DNA of 64,000 nucleotides from Naegleria gruberi (taxonomy: Eukaryota). Position 1 is the first letter of the stretch. Every line of letters starts with the position of its first letter. Location: NCBI GenBank assembly GCA_000004985.1, contig GG738852.1, one strand, 5' to 3'. Positions 15,341 to 34,129 of the stretch are shown here, in pieces. The position numbers and the translations under genes are program-made. The notes under the pieces were generated by a model, which worked only from the letters and a program-made list of their open reading frames with translations, was not told where the DNA came from and searched no databases.

Positions 15341-16516
15341 TTATTCTTGATCATCTTCTGCTTGATAATTTTCATCATTAGCATCTTCCTCTTCGTAATA
15401 TTCATCATCTTCATCAATATCTTCCTCATAATCCTCATCATCATCTTCCTCATCTTCTTCCTCATCATCGTCATCATCCATGTAAAGTGAAATTGGTCTT
15501 CTAATTCCAATGAGAACTGTTTTCATTTGAGTGACAAAGGCAACATTATTGGCCTCATCTCCCTCAATGCAGAATGCAAGTGTGAAATCATCCGTCTTGT
15601 CTGAGATAAATTGATTCGTTTCAAAGGTATTTCTTTGTAAAATCAAATTGATAGAGTGTTTCTTTTCCTGCTCTGAAACATATTCCTGTAATTTGCTGAC
15701 ATAGAGACAAATTTCAATTATCTTTTCTTTGAGTTCCTTTTTAATGTTTGCATGATTGGCTTCAATACTGTCCATGAAACTTAAATATGATCTCGATGTC
15801 AAGTACCAAATCATTTTTGGAGTTGAAGTTGTAACATCATGTTTCGAATAGGAAGCACTCATACCAAGATTTGGAATATTTTGCTTTGGAATAATTGAAA
15901 AACTCAATGTAAATGTTGAGCTTTGTCCCATTCCCAAATCTTTTGTAACTTGTTGACCTTTAAATGTTGAGAGAAATCTGTTTTGAAACCAATTCACATG
16001 TTTGACTTGTTCCAAAGGATAATACCTCGATGCCAATTCAAATGCCTTGCTCACTCTCATCATTTGAATGATTTCTCTCAATGTAAGAAATGGAAATATG
16101 TGATTATTAATAATTTTGAATGGAATTTGCTTTTTACAAATAGAATACTTTAACTTTTCAAGATCGGACCTGAAAGATTCATGATTTTGTGTTTTCTTTC
16201 TTTCCTTGATGAGTGATGATCTCATCTGACGAGCAAATTCTTCAATTTTTCCAATATTTAATTTTCTGTCTTCTGATGATGAGGTTTCGTCTGTTGGATT
16301 TTCGTTTTCTTGTTGAGGAGGATTGGCTGCCTCTTCATTATCGTCATCATTGGTTGATTCGTCATCTCGGGATTTAGTTTTCAACATGTCGTTGAATAGT
16401 TTCTCCTTCTCATGATATTCCTTTAGTCTTTGTTCAGTTTCTCCTAACAAATCACTATCGAATAAATTTTCAAAATTACCCAGAAGAGAAAGGTTCTTAA
16501 ATTGTTGTGGAAGCAT
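15341..16516 (-). CDS. Hypothetical protein with an F-box-like motif and a poly-acidic (D/E) C-terminal tail
   Basis: IPFKIINNHIFPFLTLREIIQMMRVSKAFELASRY; C-terminus DDDDDEEEDEEDDDEDYEEDIDEDDEYYEEE. Confidence 0.4.
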   Translation of the reverse strand: MLPQQFKNLSLLGNFENLFDSDLLGETEQRLKEYHEKEKLFNDMLKTKSRDDESTNDDDNEEAANPPQQENENPTDETSSSEDRKLNIGKIEEFARQMRSSLIKERKKTQNHESFRSDLEKLKYSICKKQIPFKIINNHIFPFLTLREIIQMMRVSKAFELASRYYPLEQVKHVNWFQNRFLSTFKGQQVTKDLGMGQSSTFTLSFSIIPKQNIPNLGMSASYSKHDVTTSTPKMIWYLTSRSYLSFMDSIEANHANIKKELKEKIIEICLYVSKLQEYVSEQEKKHSINLILQRNTFETNQFISDKTDDFTLAFCIEGDEANNVAFVTQMKTVLIGIRRPISLYMDDDDDEEEDEEDDDEDYEEDIDEDDEYYEEEDANDENYQAEDDQE

Positions 16517-30138: not shown

Positions 30139-31540
30139 ATGTCTCAACTCATGGTTCGAAGCTATTCATTCCTCCTGTTGATGATGCTCTTGAGTGCAGT
30201 ATTGATGATGTTCATCTCAGCAGCATCACCAATGAATGCTCAATCCACCAGAGCATCCAATGTTCTTTCATTATTGAATGAAAAGAAGGAACAATTAGAG
30301 AAGGTAAATAATGGCTTGTCGGAAACGAGCTTGTTGATGATTGCAAGCAAGAGGGAACAATCTTCCCCTCTCTACACTGCCTACAGTGAGGAAAAGAATA
30401 GAATTTATAATGTATTGGTAGCAACAAAGGCAGAATTGGAATATGAAGTTCAACTTCCTTCAAAAATTATACAATTCATCGATCAATGAATCAACAACCT
30501 CAACAACAAGTGAAGCAGATTTGAAAAAGCAGATGAAACTTGAGCAAGAAGCTGCTGCTGTCAAGAAAGTAGAACAAGAAAGAAAATTGAAAGAGGAACA
30601 GGAAAAGAAGATTAAGGAAGAACAAGAAAAGAAACTGAAATTAGAACAAGAAGCTACTGTTGTTGCTGCCAAGAAAGCAGAACAAGAAAAGAAGATTAAG
30701 GAAGAACAAGAGAGAAAACTCAAAGCTGCTGAAGAAGAAGAAAGAAAGTTGAAAGAAGAAGCTGCTAAAAAAGCTGAACAAGAGAAAAAACTGAAAGAAG
30801 AACAAGAAAAGAAATTGAAATTAGAACAAGAAGCTGCTGCTGTCAAGAAAGCAGAACAAGAAAGAATTCAAAAGGAAGAGCAAGCGAGAAAAGCACTCGA
30901 ACTTGAAAGAAAGGCAGAACAAGAAAGAAAGGCCAAGGAAGAAAAAAGAATCCAAGAAGAAAGAGATAGATTAATCCCAACTATTGGTGAATTGGTCGAT
31001 TCTGATTTATTGACACCTTCTCAATCTGAAAGATTTATGAAAGAAATCATGAAAGGAGTCAACCAACAATTACCTCACAGAATTTGGAAAGCCAAGAAGC
31101 ACGGCTCATCAATTGCTAATTTCCATGCTACATGTGATAACATGGGACCAACCATTGTGTTGGCCAAGACTAGAAATGGAGCTGTATTTGGAGCCTATTC
31201 AAAGATTTCATATTCCCTATCAGGTGATTATGTTTCTGATCCAGCTGCTTTTATGTTTAGTTTGATTTCGGCTGAGGGAGAACAAAGATTTGTCAAGTTG
31301 ACCCAAACACCACAAATTGTTGATGGAAAACAAACTTATCCAACTTCAAAGATTCATAACGCAAATCATTTGATTACTTTTGGAGGTGGTTATGACTTGC
31401 TCATATCAGACAATACTGTTAGCTTGAGTTCTTCCCTTGTTTGTCATACTTATTGTGCTCCACAAGTTACAAATCCAAAGACTTACCTTGCTGGTGAAAG
31501 AACATTTATGATTGACGATTTTGAAGTTTATAGAGTTTAA
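30139..31540 (+). CDS. Protein with a signal-peptide-like N-terminus, a K/E-rich tandem-repeat coiled-coil and a C-terminal TLDc-like domain. Two overlapping frames (30139..30489 and 30443..31540) point to a frameshift or unusual junction.
   Basis: MSQLMVRSYSFLLLMMLLSAVLMMFISAASP. Repeats of roughly 34 aa, (KEEQEKKLKLEQEAAAVKKAEQER)n. C-terminus HGSSIANFHATCDNMGPTIVLAKTRNGAVFGAYSKISYS...FGGGYDLLI...FMIDDFEVYRV matches the TLDc pattern. Confidence 0.5.
30520..30960 (+). repeat. Coding tandem repeat (about 100-nt unit, four or more copies) encoding the K/E-rich heptads of the TLDc-domain gene
   Basis: Reiterated gaacaagaaaagaagattaaggaagaacaagaaaagaaactgaaattagaacaagaagctgctgctgtcaagaaagcagaacaagaa...; the antisense ORF 30460..30846 is its mirror image. 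Confidence 0.7.
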
Positions 31541-31596: not shown

Positions 31597-32019
31597 TTAA
31601 GGTCTTCCTCTTCCACTAGTTCGCAAGCATTCACATGTTGGACAACCATGTCTATCTCTCTCAAATCCATTTTCACAAAACATTGTACAAGTGGCACGAT
31701 TACACTTCTTCACTCTCAATGGACGAATAAAATTACATTTACAAATTGGACAACCATTTCTTCTGTTCACTCTGAGTCCATATCGACACTTCTTTACAGT
31801 ACAAGAGGTACTTTGACCATAGCATTTGATGAATTGAAATCTAATCCAACGAACGAAATCATTGAGATCACCCTTGTGTCTTCTGTAGAGGAAACGATCT
31901 TTAGGATAACCAAAGAGTTTTTGATGAGTTTCGGCTTTCTCTTCTTGGAAACTGAATTGAATAAAGAGGCAGAGAATGATAGCAAGCAATGAAAGGGCAA
32001 TGATTTGTTTTGATTTCAT
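31597..32019 (-). CDS. Secreted cysteine-rich protein with two antistasin-like domains
   Basis: Signal peptide MKSKQIIALSLLAIILCLF; ...CRYGLRVNRRNGCPICKC... and ...CENGFERDRHGCPTCEC (CxxGFxxDxxGCPxCxC). Confidence 0.55.
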   Translation of the reverse strand: MKSKQIIALSLLAIILCLFIQFSFQEEKAETHQKLFGYPKDRFLYRRHKGDLNDFVRWIRFQFIKCYGQSTSCTVKKCRYGLRVNRRNGCPICKCNFIRPLRVKKCNRATCTMFCENGFERDRHGCPTCECLRTSGRGRP

Positions 32020-32203
32020 TTTTTAAGCTAAATTGATGATGATCTGAATCTAGAAGTTTCTATTTATGATAAAAGAAATGAGGAATTCGAATTAGAACCG
32101 AATGAATGAAGAAAATTTCTTTTTCTGAAAGGACGAAAAGAGAAATTAACTAAACTCGATGGGAATTCACAACGTTTAAAAAGATATCACTCATAACTTT
32201 GAA
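32020..32203. promoter_or_regulatory. Shared ~180-bp divergent (head-to-head) promoter region of the two antistasin-like genes
   Basis: The two start codons face away from each other and are separated only by this AT-rich spacer. Confidence 0.4.
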
Positions 32204-32623
32204 TTGACAACTTTCCAATTAAAAATGAAATCAAATCGTTTGGTTATTATTGCACTTCTCATGGTTCTGGTTGGCTTGATGATTGCAACGACAATTGTAA
32301 GCTGCCAAGAAGCTAGTGATACTACTATAATTGCTGAAGACAGTTCTGGTCAATCAGGAGAACAACAAGGTGGTGATTCTGATAGTGCAGATACATTGAG
32401 TCCAGGTGATGTAGAAGATTCAGATACTACCGACATTCCAGTTGACATTAACGTTGGTAGAGGAGGAAATACAAGAGATGTTAATAGTTTAAGGGGATTT
32501 AATATACTTCACGAACATTTAGATTGTAAGCCAAGTTCCAAAATGTTATTGGCTTGTAGTAAGTGTGCAGAAAAAGTATTAAGCTTTGACAGAAATGGGT
32601 GTTTGGTCTGTTCTTGTAATTAA
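32204..32623 (+). CDS. Secreted protein with one C-terminal antistasin-like domain; divergent paralogue of 31597..32019
   Basis: Signal/TM LVIIALLMVLVGLMIATTIVSC; acidic S/D/E-rich middle; C-terminus CSKCAEKVLSFDRNGCLVCSCN. Confidence 0.5.
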   Translation: MTTFQLKMKSNRLVIIALLMVLVGLMIATTIVSCQEASDTTIIAEDSSGQSGEQQGGDSDSADTLSPGDVEDSDTTDIPVDINVGRGGNTRDVNSLRGFNILHEHLDCKPSSKMLLACSKCAEKVLSFDRNGCLVCSCN

Positions 32624-32635
32624 ACAACTAATAAA

Positions 32636-34129
32636 TTAATTGAGCAAATTGAGAGCTTCAATCAAATTCTTTCTGGCAGTATCTACATCTTCAAATTGAA
32701 GTGAACTAATTGCAAATTTACATAATTTTTGTGCCTTCATCATATCATCGAGAGAGACTTCTCTCTTTGGTCCATTAGTATTGAGAACTGGTTGAGTAGT
32801 AGTGGTGGAATATGTTGGAGTTACAGGAGATGAGCTAATTGGAGTAGATGATGAGCTTGCTGGTTTTGGAATTGTTGAAACAGATTTTGGTTGTTGAAGT
32901 GGTTGTTGAGGTGGTTGAGTAAAAACAGGAGGTTGTACAAATTGTTGTTGTTGAGGTGGTTGAGGAGGAGGTTGATTAAATGTTGGTTGTTGTTGTTGAG
33001 GAGGAGGTTGTACAAATTGTTGTTGTTGTTGAGGTGGTTGTTGATATTGTGGTGGAACAAATGAAGGAGGTGAAACTTGTCTTGGAGGTTCATAAACAGT
33101 TGGTGAAGTGTTAAATGCAGATCTATTATTTGTTGGTGGAATAGGAGGTTGATTCCATGATGGGAAAGATTGTTCTTCTGTTGTTGTTGGAGAAATTTTC
33201 ATGGCATCATGATTAGTGTCAAAACTCCATGATGAAGGTTGTGGAATATTATTGTTGATATTAACTGAAGATGTTTGTTGTGAAGTTGACAAATTGAGTA
33301 ATCGTTGTTGTTCCATCAAATATTTAGTAACTTCATCTTCGTCATTGGAAGCATCATTGTTAATAGTATTTGCTGTTTGAGTTGGCATGTATTGCAATTG
33401 ATCATCTTCCTCTTCAGCTGTTTCTTCACTTGTAACTGGAGTAACAGGTTGACCTGTTCTAACTGATTTTTGAATTTCAGCAGCTCTCCACTTGGCATAC
33501 TTTTGTTTTTCCATCATCTATTAGTAATAATTAAATATGTTATTATATAATATGAAATTATTCAATGGAACCGAATGATAATAAAACACATACATCCGAA
33601 CTTAAATCACCAAATTGTTTGGTAACTTCAATCAAAATAGAGGCAGCATAATATAATTTAGCAATTTGACTATTTTCCAATGTTTTTAAACAATGATTGG
33701 TTGTTAATCAATTTAAATTATTATTATTATCATCATCATATTCATAAATATGTTTAATTAATATTATTAAATATATAAATAACAATAATAATAATAAACT
33801 TACGTATCGTGTCTTCCTGCACGATCGGCATCATCAGCCTTTTTAAAAACCTTCAAAGCAAAAACTTCAACAACACCCTTGGCTTCATCTTCTTGTGCTT
33901 CAATATTCAATTGTTCCTTATCTTGTTCCAATTGATCCATCAATCCAGTAAGTAAATTAGTAGCTTCATCATCGGCCTGATCTTGCGATTGAATAATTGA
34001 AATTCCCAATTGTGCAGCATAGGTTCTACAATAAAAACTCACAATAGGAGCTCTCTTTTCAAATTCATTGGCTCTTTGAATATAGGGAACGAGCGGCTTC
34101 AAGGAGGCTGGGTAATCATTGAGGGACAT
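32636..34129 (-). CDS. VTA1: Vta1/LIP5 (Vps4-associated ESCRT regulator); 3 exons: 33804..34129, 33594..33669, 32636..33517
   Basis: Exon 1 LKPLVPYIQRANEFEKRAPIVSFYCRTYAAQLGI...LMDQLEQDKEQL...EVFALKVFKKADDADRAGRH is collinear with the human LIP5 N-terminal MIT domain. The 76-nt middle exon, missed by the ORF track, reads TQIAKLYYAASILIEVTKQFGDLSSD. Exon 3 reads MMEKQKYAKWRAAEIQKS..., then a Q/P-rich linker, then the C-terminal VSL motif MMKAQKLCKFAISSLQFEDVDTARKNLIEALNLLN. Confidence 0.8.
32800..33120 (-). repeat. CAA/CCA-rich low-complexity coding tract (Q/P-rich linker of Vta1)
   Basis: QQPPQQQQQFVQPPPQQQQPTFNQPPPQPPQQQQF... encoded by a reiterated ttgttgttgaggtgg minus-strand pattern. Confidence 0.7.

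What the first reader, a model, noticed from the sequence alone, without database searches (positions are those of the whole stretch)
31597..32623. Head-to-head pair of antistasin-like cysteine-rich secreted protein genes
Both small genes encode signal peptides and the CxxGFxxDxxGCPxCxC module characteristic of antistasin-type serine-protease inhibitors. The minus-strand gene has two modules and the plus-strand gene one. They are divergently transcribed from a shared ~180-bp spacer. That arrangement suggests a tandem-inverted duplication with co-regulation. Antistasin domains are best known from metazoa (leech, Hydra), so their presence here is taxonomically informative either way.
Basis: partly seen in the sequence, partly recalled or inferred. 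Interest (0 to 1): 0.5.

Follow-up and report, generated by a model that had tools for sequence, protein, structure and literature searches.

The report
Naegleria antistasin-like gene with divergent partner
This is a back-to-back pair of small secreted-protein genes in the amoeba Naegleria gruberi: one is an already published antistasin-like (protease-inhibitor-type) protein, and the other is an unannotated acidic protein carrying a worn-down copy of the same cysteine module, so the pair is mostly ordinary with one small new detail.

Summary
The window is Naegleria gruberi. The minus-strand ORF (31597-32019) is exactly XP_002680847.1 / NAEGRDRAFT_63801. It matches Pfam Antistasin PF02822 (49.2 bits against a cut-off of 21.2, two stretches). 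It is already listed in Table S3 of a 2025 mSphere paper, which reports antistasin-like domains in all Naegleria and in Willaertia, so the taxonomic point is published.

Its modules are the 26-residue, 6-Cys (Hydra-type) repeat, not the 10-Cys leech domain. The residue aligned to the leech reactive-site P1 is Thr in both modules.

The plus-strand ORF (32225-32623) looks like a real gene but appears to be unannotated. It has coding-type codon usage, a hydrophobic N-terminus and an orthologue in a diverged relative. It fails Pfam. Only targeted tests link its C-terminal 6-Cys module to the family: hhalign score reached by 1 of 400 shuffles, and BLASTP E=3e-5 to a Willaertia variant module.

The head-to-head layout (205 bp between the ATGs) persists in that relative although both flanking genes differ. 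A perfect 15-nt inverted repeat sits on both start codons, which weakly supports an inverted duplication. The two mature proteins have opposite charge (+17 and -11).

Inhibitor function and co-regulation are inferred, not shown.

The parts
31597..32019 (-). CDS (with stop) of the antistasin-like secreted protein, 140 aa, identical to N. gruberi XP_002680847.1 / EFC48103.1 / NAEGRDRAFT_63801
   Evidence: Exact-sequence look-up. Pfam PF02822 at 49.2 bits with 2 stretches. Listed in Table S3 of PMC12482156.
31945..32019 (-). Approximate signal peptide (aa 1-25, MKSKQIIALSLLAIILCLFIQFSFQ); cleavage site not determined
   Evidence: Hydropathy. SignalP 6 = YES in Table S3 of PMC12482156.
31825..31920 (-). 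Pre-module region KLFGYPKDRFLYRRHKGDLNDFVRWIRFQFIK. It is nearly invariant in six orthologues and has no Pfam family. A helix is predicted for aa 52-67, in a low-confidence model.
   Evidence: Family alignments. AF2 secondary structure.
31735..31824 (-). Antistasin-like module 1 (aa 66-95, CYGQSTSCTVKKCRYGLRVNRRNGCPICKC). Cys spacing is 6,4,11,2,1. The P1-equivalent residue is Thr74.
   Evidence: Second Pfam stretch. Own HMM 24.4 bits. hhalign Prob 96.9%.
31627..31704 (-). Antistasin-like module 2 (aa 106-131, CNRATCTMFCENGFERDRHGCPTCEC). Cys spacing is the canonical 4,3,10,2,1. Thr112 aligns with antistasin Arg34.
   Evidence: Pfam best stretch 106-131 covers model positions 1-26 of 26. Alignment to 1skz. 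Own HMM 37.0 bits.
32020..32224 (.). 205-bp AT-rich spacer (27% GC) between the two start codons; presumed to hold the promoter(s) of both genes
   Evidence: Shortest of 10 divergent ORF pairs in a crude map of the window. More variable between strains than the CDSs: 7 differences in 205 bp against 3 in 423 bp and 3 in 399 bp.
32225..32623 (+). CDS (with stop) of the partner gene, 132 aa. It is absent from NCBI/UniProt/EukProt protein sets. It encodes an acidic, apparently secreted protein.
   Evidence: This exact sequence is not in the collection. The only near-identical cluster, P0004, comes from metagenome assemblies. In-frame codon-usage score is 0.28 bits per codon against -0.05 or lower in the other five frames. 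Orthologue P0005 lies in L001.
32225..32305 (+). Partner N-terminal hydrophobic segment (aa 1-27, MKSNRLVIIALLMVLVGLMIATTIVSC). It could be a signal peptide or a signal anchor.
   Evidence: Hydropathy maximum 3.7. No predictor was available.
32306..32431 (+). Partner acidic low-complexity linker (aa 28-69, net charge -12)
32432..32524 (+). Partner conserved middle region (aa 70-100, DIPVDINVGRGGNTRDVNSLRGFNILHEHLD)
   Evidence: Alignment with the L001 orthologue.
32525..32617 (+). Partner C-terminal 6-Cys module (aa 101-131, CKPSSKMLLACSKCAEKVLSFDRNGCLVCSC). Cys spacing is 9,2,11,2,1. It is a degenerate antistasin-like module.
   Evidence: No Pfam hit. Own HMM scores 13.3 bits on the last 14 residues, reached by 1 of 20000 and 5 of 20000 shuffles. 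hhalign aligns all six Cys, and 1 of 400 shuffles reaches the score. BLASTP E=3e-5 to a Willaertia variant module.
32009..32023 (.). Left arm of a perfect 15-nt inverted repeat (AAAAATGAAATCAAA on the minus strand) covering the antistasin gene's start codon
32221..32235 (.). Right arm of the same 15-nt inverted repeat, covering the partner's start codon
31731..31761 (.). Arm of a 31-nt, 71% complementary inverted repeat, encoding RNGCPICKCN at the end of module 1
   Evidence: I1; same match at protein level.
32591..32621 (.). Other arm of the 31-nt inverted repeat, encoding RNGCLVCSCN at the end of the partner module
   Evidence: I1.

Best explanation
The locus is a conserved divergent gene pair in Naegleria gruberi, squeezed between a TLDc gene and the Vta1 gene.

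Gene 1 (minus strand) is NAEGRDRAFT_63801, a secreted, very basic protein (mature net charge +17, pI 9.8). It consists of a conserved pre-module region followed by two 26-30-residue, 6-Cys antistasin-like modules. These modules correspond to the C-terminal, reactive-loop-bearing subdomain of leech antistasin, the same repeat type as in Hydra antistasin. Gene 1 belongs to the Naegleria/Willaertia antistasin-like family described in 2025.

By inference from that family, each module most likely acts as a disulfide-locked, substrate-like (canonical) inhibitor of extracellular or phagosomal serine proteases. The residue after the second Cys would sit in the S1 pocket. Here that residue is Thr in both modules, which points to elastase-, chymotrypsin- or subtilisin-like targets rather than trypsin-like ones.

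Gene 2 (plus strand) is a real but unannotated gene. It encodes an acidic protein with a hydrophobic N-terminus (mature net charge -11, pI 4.2), and its only cysteine module is a degenerate relative of the same repeat. It probably arose with gene 1 through an old inverted duplication and then diverged.

The two genes are presumably transcribed from the shared 205-bp spacer.

Shown here: gene identities, domain match, cysteine patterns, conservation of the arrangement, and charges. Inferred: inhibitor activity, target class, duplication origin and co-regulation.
For: Identity of gene 1:
- Exact match to XP_002680847.1 of N. gruberi.
- PF02822 at 49.2 bits against a cut-off of 21.2, two stretches. 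The orthologue P0002 scores 37.5 bits.
- Best solved-structure hits are antistasin 1skz, bdellastasin and guamerin. Cys106/111/115/126/129/131 align to antistasin Cys28/33/37/48/51/53, and Thr112 aligns to Arg34.
- An HMM built from 74 heterolobosean and leech modules scores 52.8 bits.
- The protein is listed, with a SignalP-positive call, in Table S3 of PMC12482156.

Support for an inhibitor-like design:
- Leech inhibitors have the disulfide pattern 1-3, 2-4, 5-8, 6-9, 7-10, and their P1 residue sets specificity (Arg/Lys for trypsin-like targets, Met for elastase- or chymotrypsin-like) (PMC6265900).
- The 25-26-residue Hydra repeats share the cysteine pattern of the C-terminal part of the leech domain (PMC7851590).
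- Across six orthologues the scaffold (GLRVN..NGCP.C.C, ERDRHGC) is invariant. Substitutions cluster in the Cys1-Cys3 loops: TMF becomes ANE, and TVKK becomes NVRQ or RVSK.

Gene 2 is real:
- In-frame codon score is 0.28 against -0.05 or lower in the other five frames.
- It has a hydrophobic N-terminus.
- The orthologue P0005 is 50% identical over the C-terminal 63 aa.
- In a 98-99% identical strain, each CDS carries 3 substitutions (2 synonymous and 1 non-synonymous in gene 2), against 7 differences in the 205-bp spacer.

Gene 2 is related to the family:
- Each protein is the other's best non-self tblastn hit in the window.
- BLASTP between the two gives E=0.002.
- The module HMM scores 13.3 bits, reached by 1 of 20000 free shuffles and 5 of 20000 Cys-fixed shuffles.
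- hhalign aligns all six Cys (Prob 80%), and 1 of 400 column shuffles reaches the score.
- BLASTP gives E=3e-5 to a variant module of Willaertia wmagna_002042.
- The L001 orthologue has lost exactly Cys2 and Cys5, one predicted bonded pair under the 1-4, 2-5, 3-6 topology.

The pair behaves as a unit:
- The head-to-head layout is also found in L002/L003 (a near-identical strain) and in L001 (66% identical orthologue), although neither flank of L001 matches the TLDc or Vta1 genes.

Inverted duplication:
- A perfect 15-nt inverted repeat lies on both start codons. It occurs only twice in 64 kb, and no other ORF start matches more than 12 of 15.
- A 31-nt, 71% inverted repeat covers the ends of the modules.
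Against: - No biochemical or expression data exist for either gene (one search found no paper naming the gene in its main text).
- Neither protein has the 4-Cys N-terminal subdomain of the proven leech inhibitors.
- Thr is an unusual P1 residue. The P1-equivalent is Asn or Ala in the L001 orthologue, which could mean the loop is simply unconstrained.
- Gene 2 fails Pfam at any threshold. Its L001 orthologue scores only 4.3 bits on the module HMM.
- An exhaustive profile search of 1.84 billion proteins linked the partner to no antistasin protein. It returned only its own two clusters plus WD40 and other repeat artefacts.
- AF2 models were too poor to test the fold (pLDDT 55 and 53).
- AAAAATG is a common start context in this genome (about 14 of 42 ORFs), so only about 8 nt of the 15-nt repeat are informative.
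- The spacer shows no motif conserved with L001. Short divergent spacers are expected in this compact genome.
- Conservation of the pair rests on one diverged relative.
Confidence: 0.6

Rival explanations
1. The two proteins form a cationic effector plus anionic neutraliser. On this reading, the strongly basic, disulfide-rich gene-1 protein is a defensin-like antimicrobial or membrane-active effector used against bacterial prey. The acidic partner, co-expressed from the shared spacer, binds it and keeps it harmless during secretion or storage, playing in trans the role that an anionic propiece plays in cis.
For: - The charges are opposite and keep their sign in the diverged pair: +17 and -11 in N. 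gruberi, +9 and -3 in L001.
- The related gene in L004 (P0003) carries a 75-residue acidic linker (net -15) in cis, directly ahead of the basic part (+18).
- The pair stays together although both flanks differ.
- The most conserved part of gene 1 is not the modules but the basic, aromatic pre-module region, for which a helix is predicted.
Against: - This is purely correlative: there is no binding or activity data.
- Acidic low-complexity linkers are common in secreted Naegleria antistasin-like proteins generally (Table S3).
- The conserved C-terminal part of the partner is not acidic (+1 and +2).
- The L001 partner is only weakly acidic.
- L004 is an 890-bp contig with an unreliable 3' end.
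Confidence: 0.15
2. The antistasin-like modules are non-inhibitory structural or binding modules of the extracellular matrix or cyst wall, as antistasin-like repeats are in some large metazoan proteins. The neighbouring gene is just another small secreted protein.
For: - Other family members in Naegleria are large, proline-rich, multi-module proteins with up to 11 modules (Table S3).
- The PMC12482156 authors state that function is unknown and probably unrelated to blood clotting.
- The P1-equivalent residue is neither basic nor conserved here.
- A cocoon-wall antistasin-like protein of a leech appears in the reference list of PMC7851590.
Against: - Gene 1 is small, with only two modules, like the soluble inhibitors.
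- The pattern of variable loop and invariant scaffold fits a binding loop.
- 27 of 72 heterolobosean modules have Arg or Lys at the P1-equivalent position, as trypsin-type inhibitors do.
Confidence: 0.18
3. The plus-strand ORF is a chance ORF or a dead relic, and the head-to-head layout is an accident of a gene-dense genome. Only the annotated antistasin-like gene would then be meaningful.
For: - The ORF is not annotated in the reference proteome.
- It has no Pfam family and no relatives beyond two clusters among 1.84 billion representatives.
- The orthologue has lost two of six Cys.
- Divergent pairs with spacers of a few hundred bp are common in the window.
Against: - The ORF is intact, with a hydrophobic N-terminus, in three independent assemblies and in a relative whose gene-1 orthologue is only 66% identical.
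- Codon usage is coding-like in one frame only.
- Between strains it evolves as slowly as the neighbouring CDS and more slowly than the spacer.
- The two lost Cys form a predicted bonded pair rather than being a random loss.
Confidence: 0.07

Closest known systems
Naegleria/Willaertia antistasin-like domain proteins (PMC12482156, mSphere 2025, Table S3; orthogroup containing XP_002680847.1)
   Same: The minus-strand gene is literally one of the 59 listed proteins. Its orthologues in N. clarki, PL0398 and PL0403 share the FGYPKDRF pre-module region and both modules. Signal peptides and the reduced cysteine count match the paper's description.
   Different: The paper counts one domain in this protein, whereas two modules are detectable. 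The paper mentions neither the divergent partner gene, nor the conserved head-to-head arrangement, nor the opposite charges. The partner is not in its table because it has no IPR004094 match and is not annotated.
Hydra antistasin-like protein (Holstein et al. 1992, as summarised in PMC7851590)
   Same: It is built from 25-26-residue repeats with the six-cysteine pattern of the C-terminal part of the leech domain. That unit (C-x4-C-x3-C-x10-C-x2-C-x-C) is exactly what is found in module 2.
   Different: Hydra has six tandem repeats in a metazoan gland-cell protein. Here there are two repeats behind a lineage-specific basic region, in a heterolobosean amoeba.
Leech antistasin-type inhibitors (MEROPS I15: antistasin, hirustasin, bdellastasin, guamerin)
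   Same: - They are the best solved-structure hits.
- The six cysteines and the G-[FY]-x2-D-x2-GC motif are shared.
- The CTMFC loop of module 2 resembles guamerin's CMIFC, where Met is the P1 residue (guamerin sequence from my own knowledge; P1 statement from PMC6265900).
   Different: - The leech domains have 10 Cys, with an extra 4-Cys N-terminal subdomain that is absent here.
- The proven inhibitors have Arg, Lys or Met at P1, whereas Thr is found here.
- No activity data exist for any heterolobosean member.
Willaertia magna variant module (wmagna_002042 / 000129 / 002069, C-x4-C-x5-C-x8-C-x2-C-x-C, e.g. CKKSKCPKRTGCVYQIDRNGCKVCVC)
   Same: It is the closest sequence found to the partner's C-terminal region (17 of 51 identical, pairwise E=3e-5). 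Both lack the G-[FY] motif and keep D-R-N-G-C-x-V-C-x-C.
   Different: The cysteine spacing in the first half differs (9,2,11 against 4,5,8). In Willaertia the variant module sits between canonical modules in one protein, whereas here it is the only module of a separate acidic protein.

Membership tests
Antistasin family (Pfam PF02822 / InterPro IPR004094) | Score above the Pfam gathering threshold (21.2 bits): minus-strand protein | tested here: met
   49.2 bits, E=7.2e-13, 2 stretches; the best stretch, 106-131, covers model positions 1-26 of 26.
Antistasin family (Pfam PF02822 / InterPro IPR004094) | Score above the Pfam gathering threshold: plus-strand (partner) protein | tested here: not met
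   No family reported at E<=1 for the full length or at E<=10 for the C-terminal 63 or 34 residues. The L001 orthologue also gives nothing.
Antistasin family (Pfam PF02822 / InterPro IPR004094) | Six cysteines spaced C-x4-C-x3-C-x10-C-x2-C-x-C (the commonest spacing, 25 of 76 reference modules) | tested here: met
   Minus module 2 has exactly 4,3,10,2,1. Module 1 has 6,4,11,2,1, which lies outside the spacings seen in the reference set. The partner has 9,2,11,2,1, so its first half does not fit.
Antistasin family (Pfam PF02822 / InterPro IPR004094) | Partner module related to the family beyond its cysteine positions | tested here: inconclusive
   - Own HMM: 13.3 bits over the last 14 residues only; 5 of 20000 Cys-fixed shuffles reach it.
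- hhalign: score 19.5-20.9, Prob 50-80%; 1 of 400 Cys-fixed shuffles reaches it.
- BLASTP: E=3e-5 to a Willaertia variant module.
- Against this, the L001 orthologue scores 4.3 bits, and an exhaustive search found no antistasin protein.
Leech-type antistasin inhibitory domain (MEROPS I15) | Ten cysteines per domain (a 4-Cys N-terminal subdomain plus a 6-Cys C-terminal subdomain) | tested here: not met
   The mature minus protein has 12 Cys as 2 x 6, and the partner has 6. No 4-Cys subdomain precedes any module. The definition comes from PMC7851590 and PMC6265900.
Leech-type antistasin inhibitory domain (MEROPS I15) | Disulfide topology 5-8, 6-9, 7-10 (that is, 1-4, 2-5, 3-6 within the 6-Cys module) | tested here: inconclusive
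   It cannot be measured here. The AF2 models were too poor. One indirect hint: the partner orthologue in L001 has lost exactly Cys2 and Cys5. A random pair of lost cysteines would match one of the three predicted bonds 3 times in 15.
Leech-type antistasin inhibitory domain (MEROPS I15) | Arg, Lys or Met at P1, the residue after the second Cys of the 6-Cys module | tested here: not met
   Thr74 and Thr112 in N. gruberi; Asn and Ala in L001; Arg in module 1 of L004.
Leech-type antistasin inhibitory domain (MEROPS I15) | Measured inhibition of a serine protease | not testable with these tools
   This needs recombinant protein and enzyme assays. No published data were found for this gene.
Naegleria/Willaertia antistasin-like proteins (PMC12482156) | Listed member with an IPR004094 domain and an N-terminal signal peptide | tested here: met
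   XP_002680847.1: 140 aa, 1 domain, SignalP 6 YES (Table S3). The partner is not listed.
Co-regulated divergent (bidirectional-promoter) gene pair | Head-to-head orientation with a short shared spacer, conserved in relatives | tested here: met
   - The spacer is 205 bp, the shortest of 10 divergent ORF pairs in the window.
- The same layout occurs in L002/L003 and, with a 281-bp spacer, in L001, where the flanks differ.
- Only one diverged relative was available.
Co-regulated divergent (bidirectional-promoter) gene pair | Correlated expression or shared regulatory elements | not testable with these tools
   No expression data were accessible. No k-mer of 9 nt or longer is shared between the N. 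gruberi and L001 spacers.

The most novel reading that the evidence does not exclude
The locus may be a two-gene module that evolved by inverted duplication. A cationic antistasin-like effector and an anionic, degenerate-module partner would be co-expressed from one spacer and work as a complex, with the acidic protein masking, chaperoning or regulating the basic one. The L004 relative, which carries a 75-residue acidic segment fused in cis, would be the single-chain version of the same design.
Probability: 0.15. Interest if true: 0.55.

Novelty: new member of a known kind. Interest (0 to 1): 0.3.

Why it matters
The headline point, an 'animal' protease-inhibitor domain in an amoeba, is already in the literature. 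This specific protein is listed there, so the finding does not change that picture.

What this work adds is modest:
- A second, unannotated gene sits head-to-head with the known one. It is probably a decayed relative of the same module, which suggests that domain-based surveys undercount the family.
- The pair stays linked when its neighbours change, and the two products have opposite charge. That gives a concrete, testable starting point for the still unknown function of the heterolobosean antistasin-like proteins.
- The predicted non-basic P1 residue (Thr) narrows the first protease panel to try.

Tried and rejected
- **Structure prediction.** AlphaFold2 was run on both proteins with the only admissible alignments (3 sequences each). 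Mean pLDDT was 55.2 and 52.7. Foldseek against the PDB returned nothing for the minus protein and only E>1 noise for the partner. No fold evidence came from this.
- **Exhaustive profile search.** The partner's conserved C-terminal 63 residues were searched against 1.84 billion representatives. Apart from its own two clusters, the 9 further hits are WD40, ankyrin, laminin-G and other repeat proteins that add up short matches. I rejected them as artefacts.
- **Metagenome scans.** Two scans of JGI metagenome contigs, one with each family, gave no confirmed locus.
- **Shared spacer motifs.** A comparison of the N. gruberi and L001 spacers found nothing of 9 nt or longer.
- **Flank synteny.** The TLDc and Vta1 genes are not next to the pair in L001.
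- **Literature.** A search for the gene's identifiers found no paper naming it in the main text.
The TTG at 32204, which gives the ~180-bp spacer, was rejected because this is a eukaryote and an ATG lies seven codons downstream of it.
- **Antisense ORF.** The 114-aa ORF at 31648-31992 (+) was rejected as a gene. It is the mirror of the conserved, annotated CDS, and its codon score is lower than that of the true frame.
- **Horizontal transfer from animals.** I considered this origin for the domain but could not test it. The similarity is confined to 26-residue modules, as the 2025 authors also concluded.
Full report
**What the window is**

The 64-kb window is AT-rich (about 33% GC) and densely packed with mostly intron-poor ORFs. 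The minus-strand ORF of the finding is, residue for residue, the Naegleria gruberi protein EFC48103.1 / XP_002680847.1 / UniRef D2V5F2 (NAEGRDRAFT_63801, 'predicted protein'). Its neighbours are eukaryotic housekeeping genes. A TLDc-domain gene lies at 30443-31540 (+). A Vta1 gene has exons at 32636-33517 and 33800-34129 (-).

**Checking the observation**

- The minus-strand CDS is 31597-32019 (140 aa).
- The plus-strand CDS runs from ATG 32225 to 32623 (132 aa).

Measured from ATG to ATG, the spacer is 205 bp.

Both proteins start with a strongly hydrophobic segment. For the minus protein, SignalP 6 is reported positive in the literature. For the plus protein I could not run a predictor. Its hydrophobic core is 20 residues long, so a signal anchor is not excluded.

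Module 1 (CRYGLRVNRRNGCPICKC) is a close variant. The plus protein has only the second half of the motif (FDRNGCLVCSC).

**The minus-strand gene is an antistasin-domain protein**
- Pfam Antistasin PF02822 scores 49.2 bits against a gathering score of 21.2, with two matched stretches.
- The best hits among all solved structures are antistasin (1skz), bdellastasin and guamerin.
- An HMM I built from 74 modules of Naegleria, Willaertia and leech proteins scores it at 52.8 bits: 24.4 bits for residues 73-95 and 37.0 bits for residues 106-131.

Module 2 has the commonest spacing of the family, C-x4-C-x3-C-x10-C-x2-C-x-C. Module 1 has 6,4,11,2,1.

Each module has six cysteines and no module is preceded by a further four. 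This is therefore the 25-26-residue repeat first seen in Hydra, which corresponds to the C-terminal part of the leech domain (PMC7851590). The 2025 paper makes the same remark about fewer cysteines.

**This is already published**

- It notes that about 98% of InterPro entries for the domain are from eukaryotes, and that almost all of these are from animals and their unicellular relatives.
- It finds signal peptides in 86% of the 59 proteins.
- It leaves both function and origin open.

Table S3 lists XP_002680847.1 (140 aa, signal peptide YES), together with clear orthologues in N. clarki, Naegleria sp. PL0398 and PL0403.

**What gene 1 probably does**

Leech antistasin-type inhibitors are canonical serine-protease inhibitors with disulfides 1-3, 2-4, 5-8, 6-9, 7-10. 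Their P1 residue sets specificity: Arg or Lys for trypsin-like enzymes, Met in guamerin for elastase- and chymotrypsin-like enzymes (PMC6265900).

In the alignment to antistasin, the Naegleria Cys106/111/115 match Cys28/33/37, and Thr112 matches Arg34. Arg34 is the reactive-site residue according to Dunwiddie et al. 1989; this is from my own knowledge, and the paper appears in the reference lists seen.

The P1-equivalent residue is Thr in both modules. In 72 heterolobosean modules, 27 have Arg or Lys at this position and only 3 have Thr.

Across six orthologues the scaffold is invariant while the Cys1-Cys3 loops change: TMF, TIF and ANE in module 2, and TVKK, NVRQ and RVSK in module 1. A conserved frame with a variable loop is what a binding loop looks like. 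It could equally mean that the loop is unconstrained.

I therefore rate 'secreted canonical inhibitor of non-trypsin-like serine proteases' as the most likely function. It rests on family membership, not on data.

The most conserved part of the protein is actually the basic, aromatic stretch before module 1 (LFGYPKDRFLYRRHKGDLNDFVRWIRFQFIK). It has no Pfam family and no explanation.

**The plus-strand gene is real but unannotated**

The exact protein is absent from a 15-billion-sequence collection that includes NCBI, UniProt and EukProt. The only near-identical cluster (P0004, one substitution) comes from metagenome assemblies.

Four observations support it as a gene.
- Its codon usage scores +0.28 bits per codon in frame and -0.05 or lower in the five other frames. 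That is comparable to the annotated neighbour at +0.25.
- In a 98-99% identical strain (L002/L003) it carries 3 substitutions in 399 bp, of which 2 are synonymous. The spacer carries 7 differences in 205 bp.
- A diverged relative (L001) has an intact orthologue, P0005. It has a hydrophobic N-terminus, a Q- and E-rich linker, and 50% identity over the C-terminal 63 residues.
- That orthologue sits in the same head-to-head position.

**Is the partner antistasin-like?**

By the standard test it is not: Pfam reports nothing even at E<=10. An exhaustive profile search of 1.84 billion representatives found only its own two clusters plus repeat-protein artefacts.

Targeted tests give consistent but weak support.
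- Within the window, each protein is the other's best non-self tblastn hit, and both modules of gene 1 hit the same partner segment.
- BLASTP between the two gives E=0.002.
- My module HMM scores the last 14 residues at 13.3 bits. That score is reached by 1 of 20000 free shuffles and 5 of 20000 shuffles with the cysteines held in place.
- hhalign aligns all six cysteines (Prob 80% with -M first, 50% with -M 50), and 1 of 400 column shuffles reaches the observed score under either null.
- The single best match is a variant module of Willaertia wmagna_002042, CKKSKCPKRTGCVYQIDRNGCKVCVC, at E=3e-5 pairwise with 17 of 51 identical.
- The L001 orthologue has lost exactly Cys2 and Cys5, which would be one bonded pair under the family's 1-4, 2-5, 3-6 topology. 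A random pair would fit 3 times in 15.

Against this, the L001 orthologue itself scores only 4.3 bits. I put the probability that the partner module is a degenerate descendant of the antistasin-like repeat at about 0.6.

**Inverted duplication**

At the nucleotide level there are two inverted repeats in register with the genes.
- A perfect 15-mer, AAAAATGAAATCAAA, covers both start codons.
- A 31-nt, 71% match covers RNGCPICKCN and RNGCLVCSCN.

The 15-mer occurs only at these two places in the window. However, AAAAATG is the common start context here (about 14 of 42 ORFs), so only about 8 nt are informative. No other ORF start matches more than 12 of 15. The signal peptides are also alike: MKSNQIVLLALL in the PL0398 orthologue against MKSNRLVIIALL in the partner, 8 of 16 identical, compared with 3-5 of 16 for the other four N. 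gruberi family members. This is compatible with an old inverted duplication but does not prove it. Inside gene 1, a 26-nt direct repeat (85%) links the ends of modules 1 and 2.

**The pair as a unit**

The 205-bp spacer is the shortest of ten divergent ORF pairs in a crude map of the window. In L001 the two genes are again head-to-head, with a 281-bp spacer, although neither flank resembles the TLDc or Vta1 genes. That argues for linkage being kept, on the strength of one diverged relative. The spacers share no word of 9 nt or longer. Co-regulation is untested.

**An unexpected feature: opposite charge**

The mature gene-1 protein has net charge +17 (pI 9.8) and the partner -11 (pI 4.2). In L001 the values are +9 and -3.

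A third relative, P0003 on the short contig L004, has a 75-residue acidic repeat linker (net -15) fused directly in front of the basic FGYPKDRF region.

This suggests, but does not show, that the basic protein is accompanied by an acidic segment either in cis or in trans. I keep this as the most novel reading, at low probability.

**What failed**

AlphaFold2 with three-sequence alignments gave unusable models, and the fold searches gave nothing. Two metagenome scans found no further loci. No paper names the gene in its main text.

**Verdict**

- One gene is a bona fide antistasin-like protein, and it is already published.
- The other gene is unannotated, with a degenerate module that fails the standard family test.
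- The 10-Cys criterion is not met by either gene.
- The duplication idea has weak support.
- Co-regulation and function remain inferences.

Interest is low to moderate.

Noticed in passing
L004:299-811 (protein P0003): This relative of the antistasin-like gene (82% nt identity over 220 nt) has a 75-residue acidic linker between the signal peptide and the basic FGYPKDRF region. The linker is internally repeated (QDPFPMDSF x2, QPEDSSQAAT x2) and has net charge -15. After module 1 the 890-bp contig diverges into unrelated, GC-richer sequence, which may be an intron or a chimeric assembly. No partner-like ORF lies in the 298 bp upstream.
   Followed up: partly
PMC12482156 Table S3: The orthogroup labels for the two single-cell genomes look shifted. 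Naegleria_PL0398_g1626.t1, an obvious orthologue of XP_002680847.1, is labelled OG0011043. The unrelated single-module protein g7790.t1 is labelled OG0011610. The table also counts one domain in XP_002680847.1, where two modules are detectable.
   Followed up: no
window:30443-31540 (+): This TLDc-domain gene has an N-terminal half that is a long K/E/Q-rich repetitive stretch (variations on EQEKKLKEEQ), probably coiled coil. Its stop codon lies only 56 bp from the stop of the antistasin-like gene.
   Followed up: no
window:32636-34129 (-): The Vta1 gene is split by an apparent 282-bp intron (33518-33799). A long Q/P-rich low-complexity linker lies between the Vta1 N-terminal and C-terminal domains. 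Its stop codon is 12 bp from the partner gene's stop. A strain variant has a 3-nt indel in the linker.
   Followed up: partly
window:14123-15298 and 15341-16516 (-): Two adjacent ORFs of exactly 391 aa lie on the same strand, 42 bp apart. One matches the APH phosphotransferase family (PF01636) and the other has no Pfam hit at E<=0.001. They may be a diverged tandem duplicate.
   Followed up: partly
window:27621-29087 (+): This ORF combines a 2OG-Fe(II) oxygenase domain with a C-terminal F-box-like motif, an uncommon pairing.
   Followed up: no
window:31648-31992 (+): A 114-aa ORF runs antisense to the antistasin-like CDS. It is most likely a by-product of the codon composition of the true gene.
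   Followed up: partly
Willaertia magna proteins wmagna_002042, 000129, 002069/002070 (Table S3): These proteins contain a variant 6-Cys module (C-x4-C-x5-C-x8-C-x2-C-x-C, with no G-[FY]) between or beside canonical modules. From the per-protein domain counts in Table S3, the variant does not appear to be counted as an antistasin domain. It is the closest relative of the partner's module, which suggests a wider class of degenerate modules that domain-based surveys miss.
   Followed up: partly
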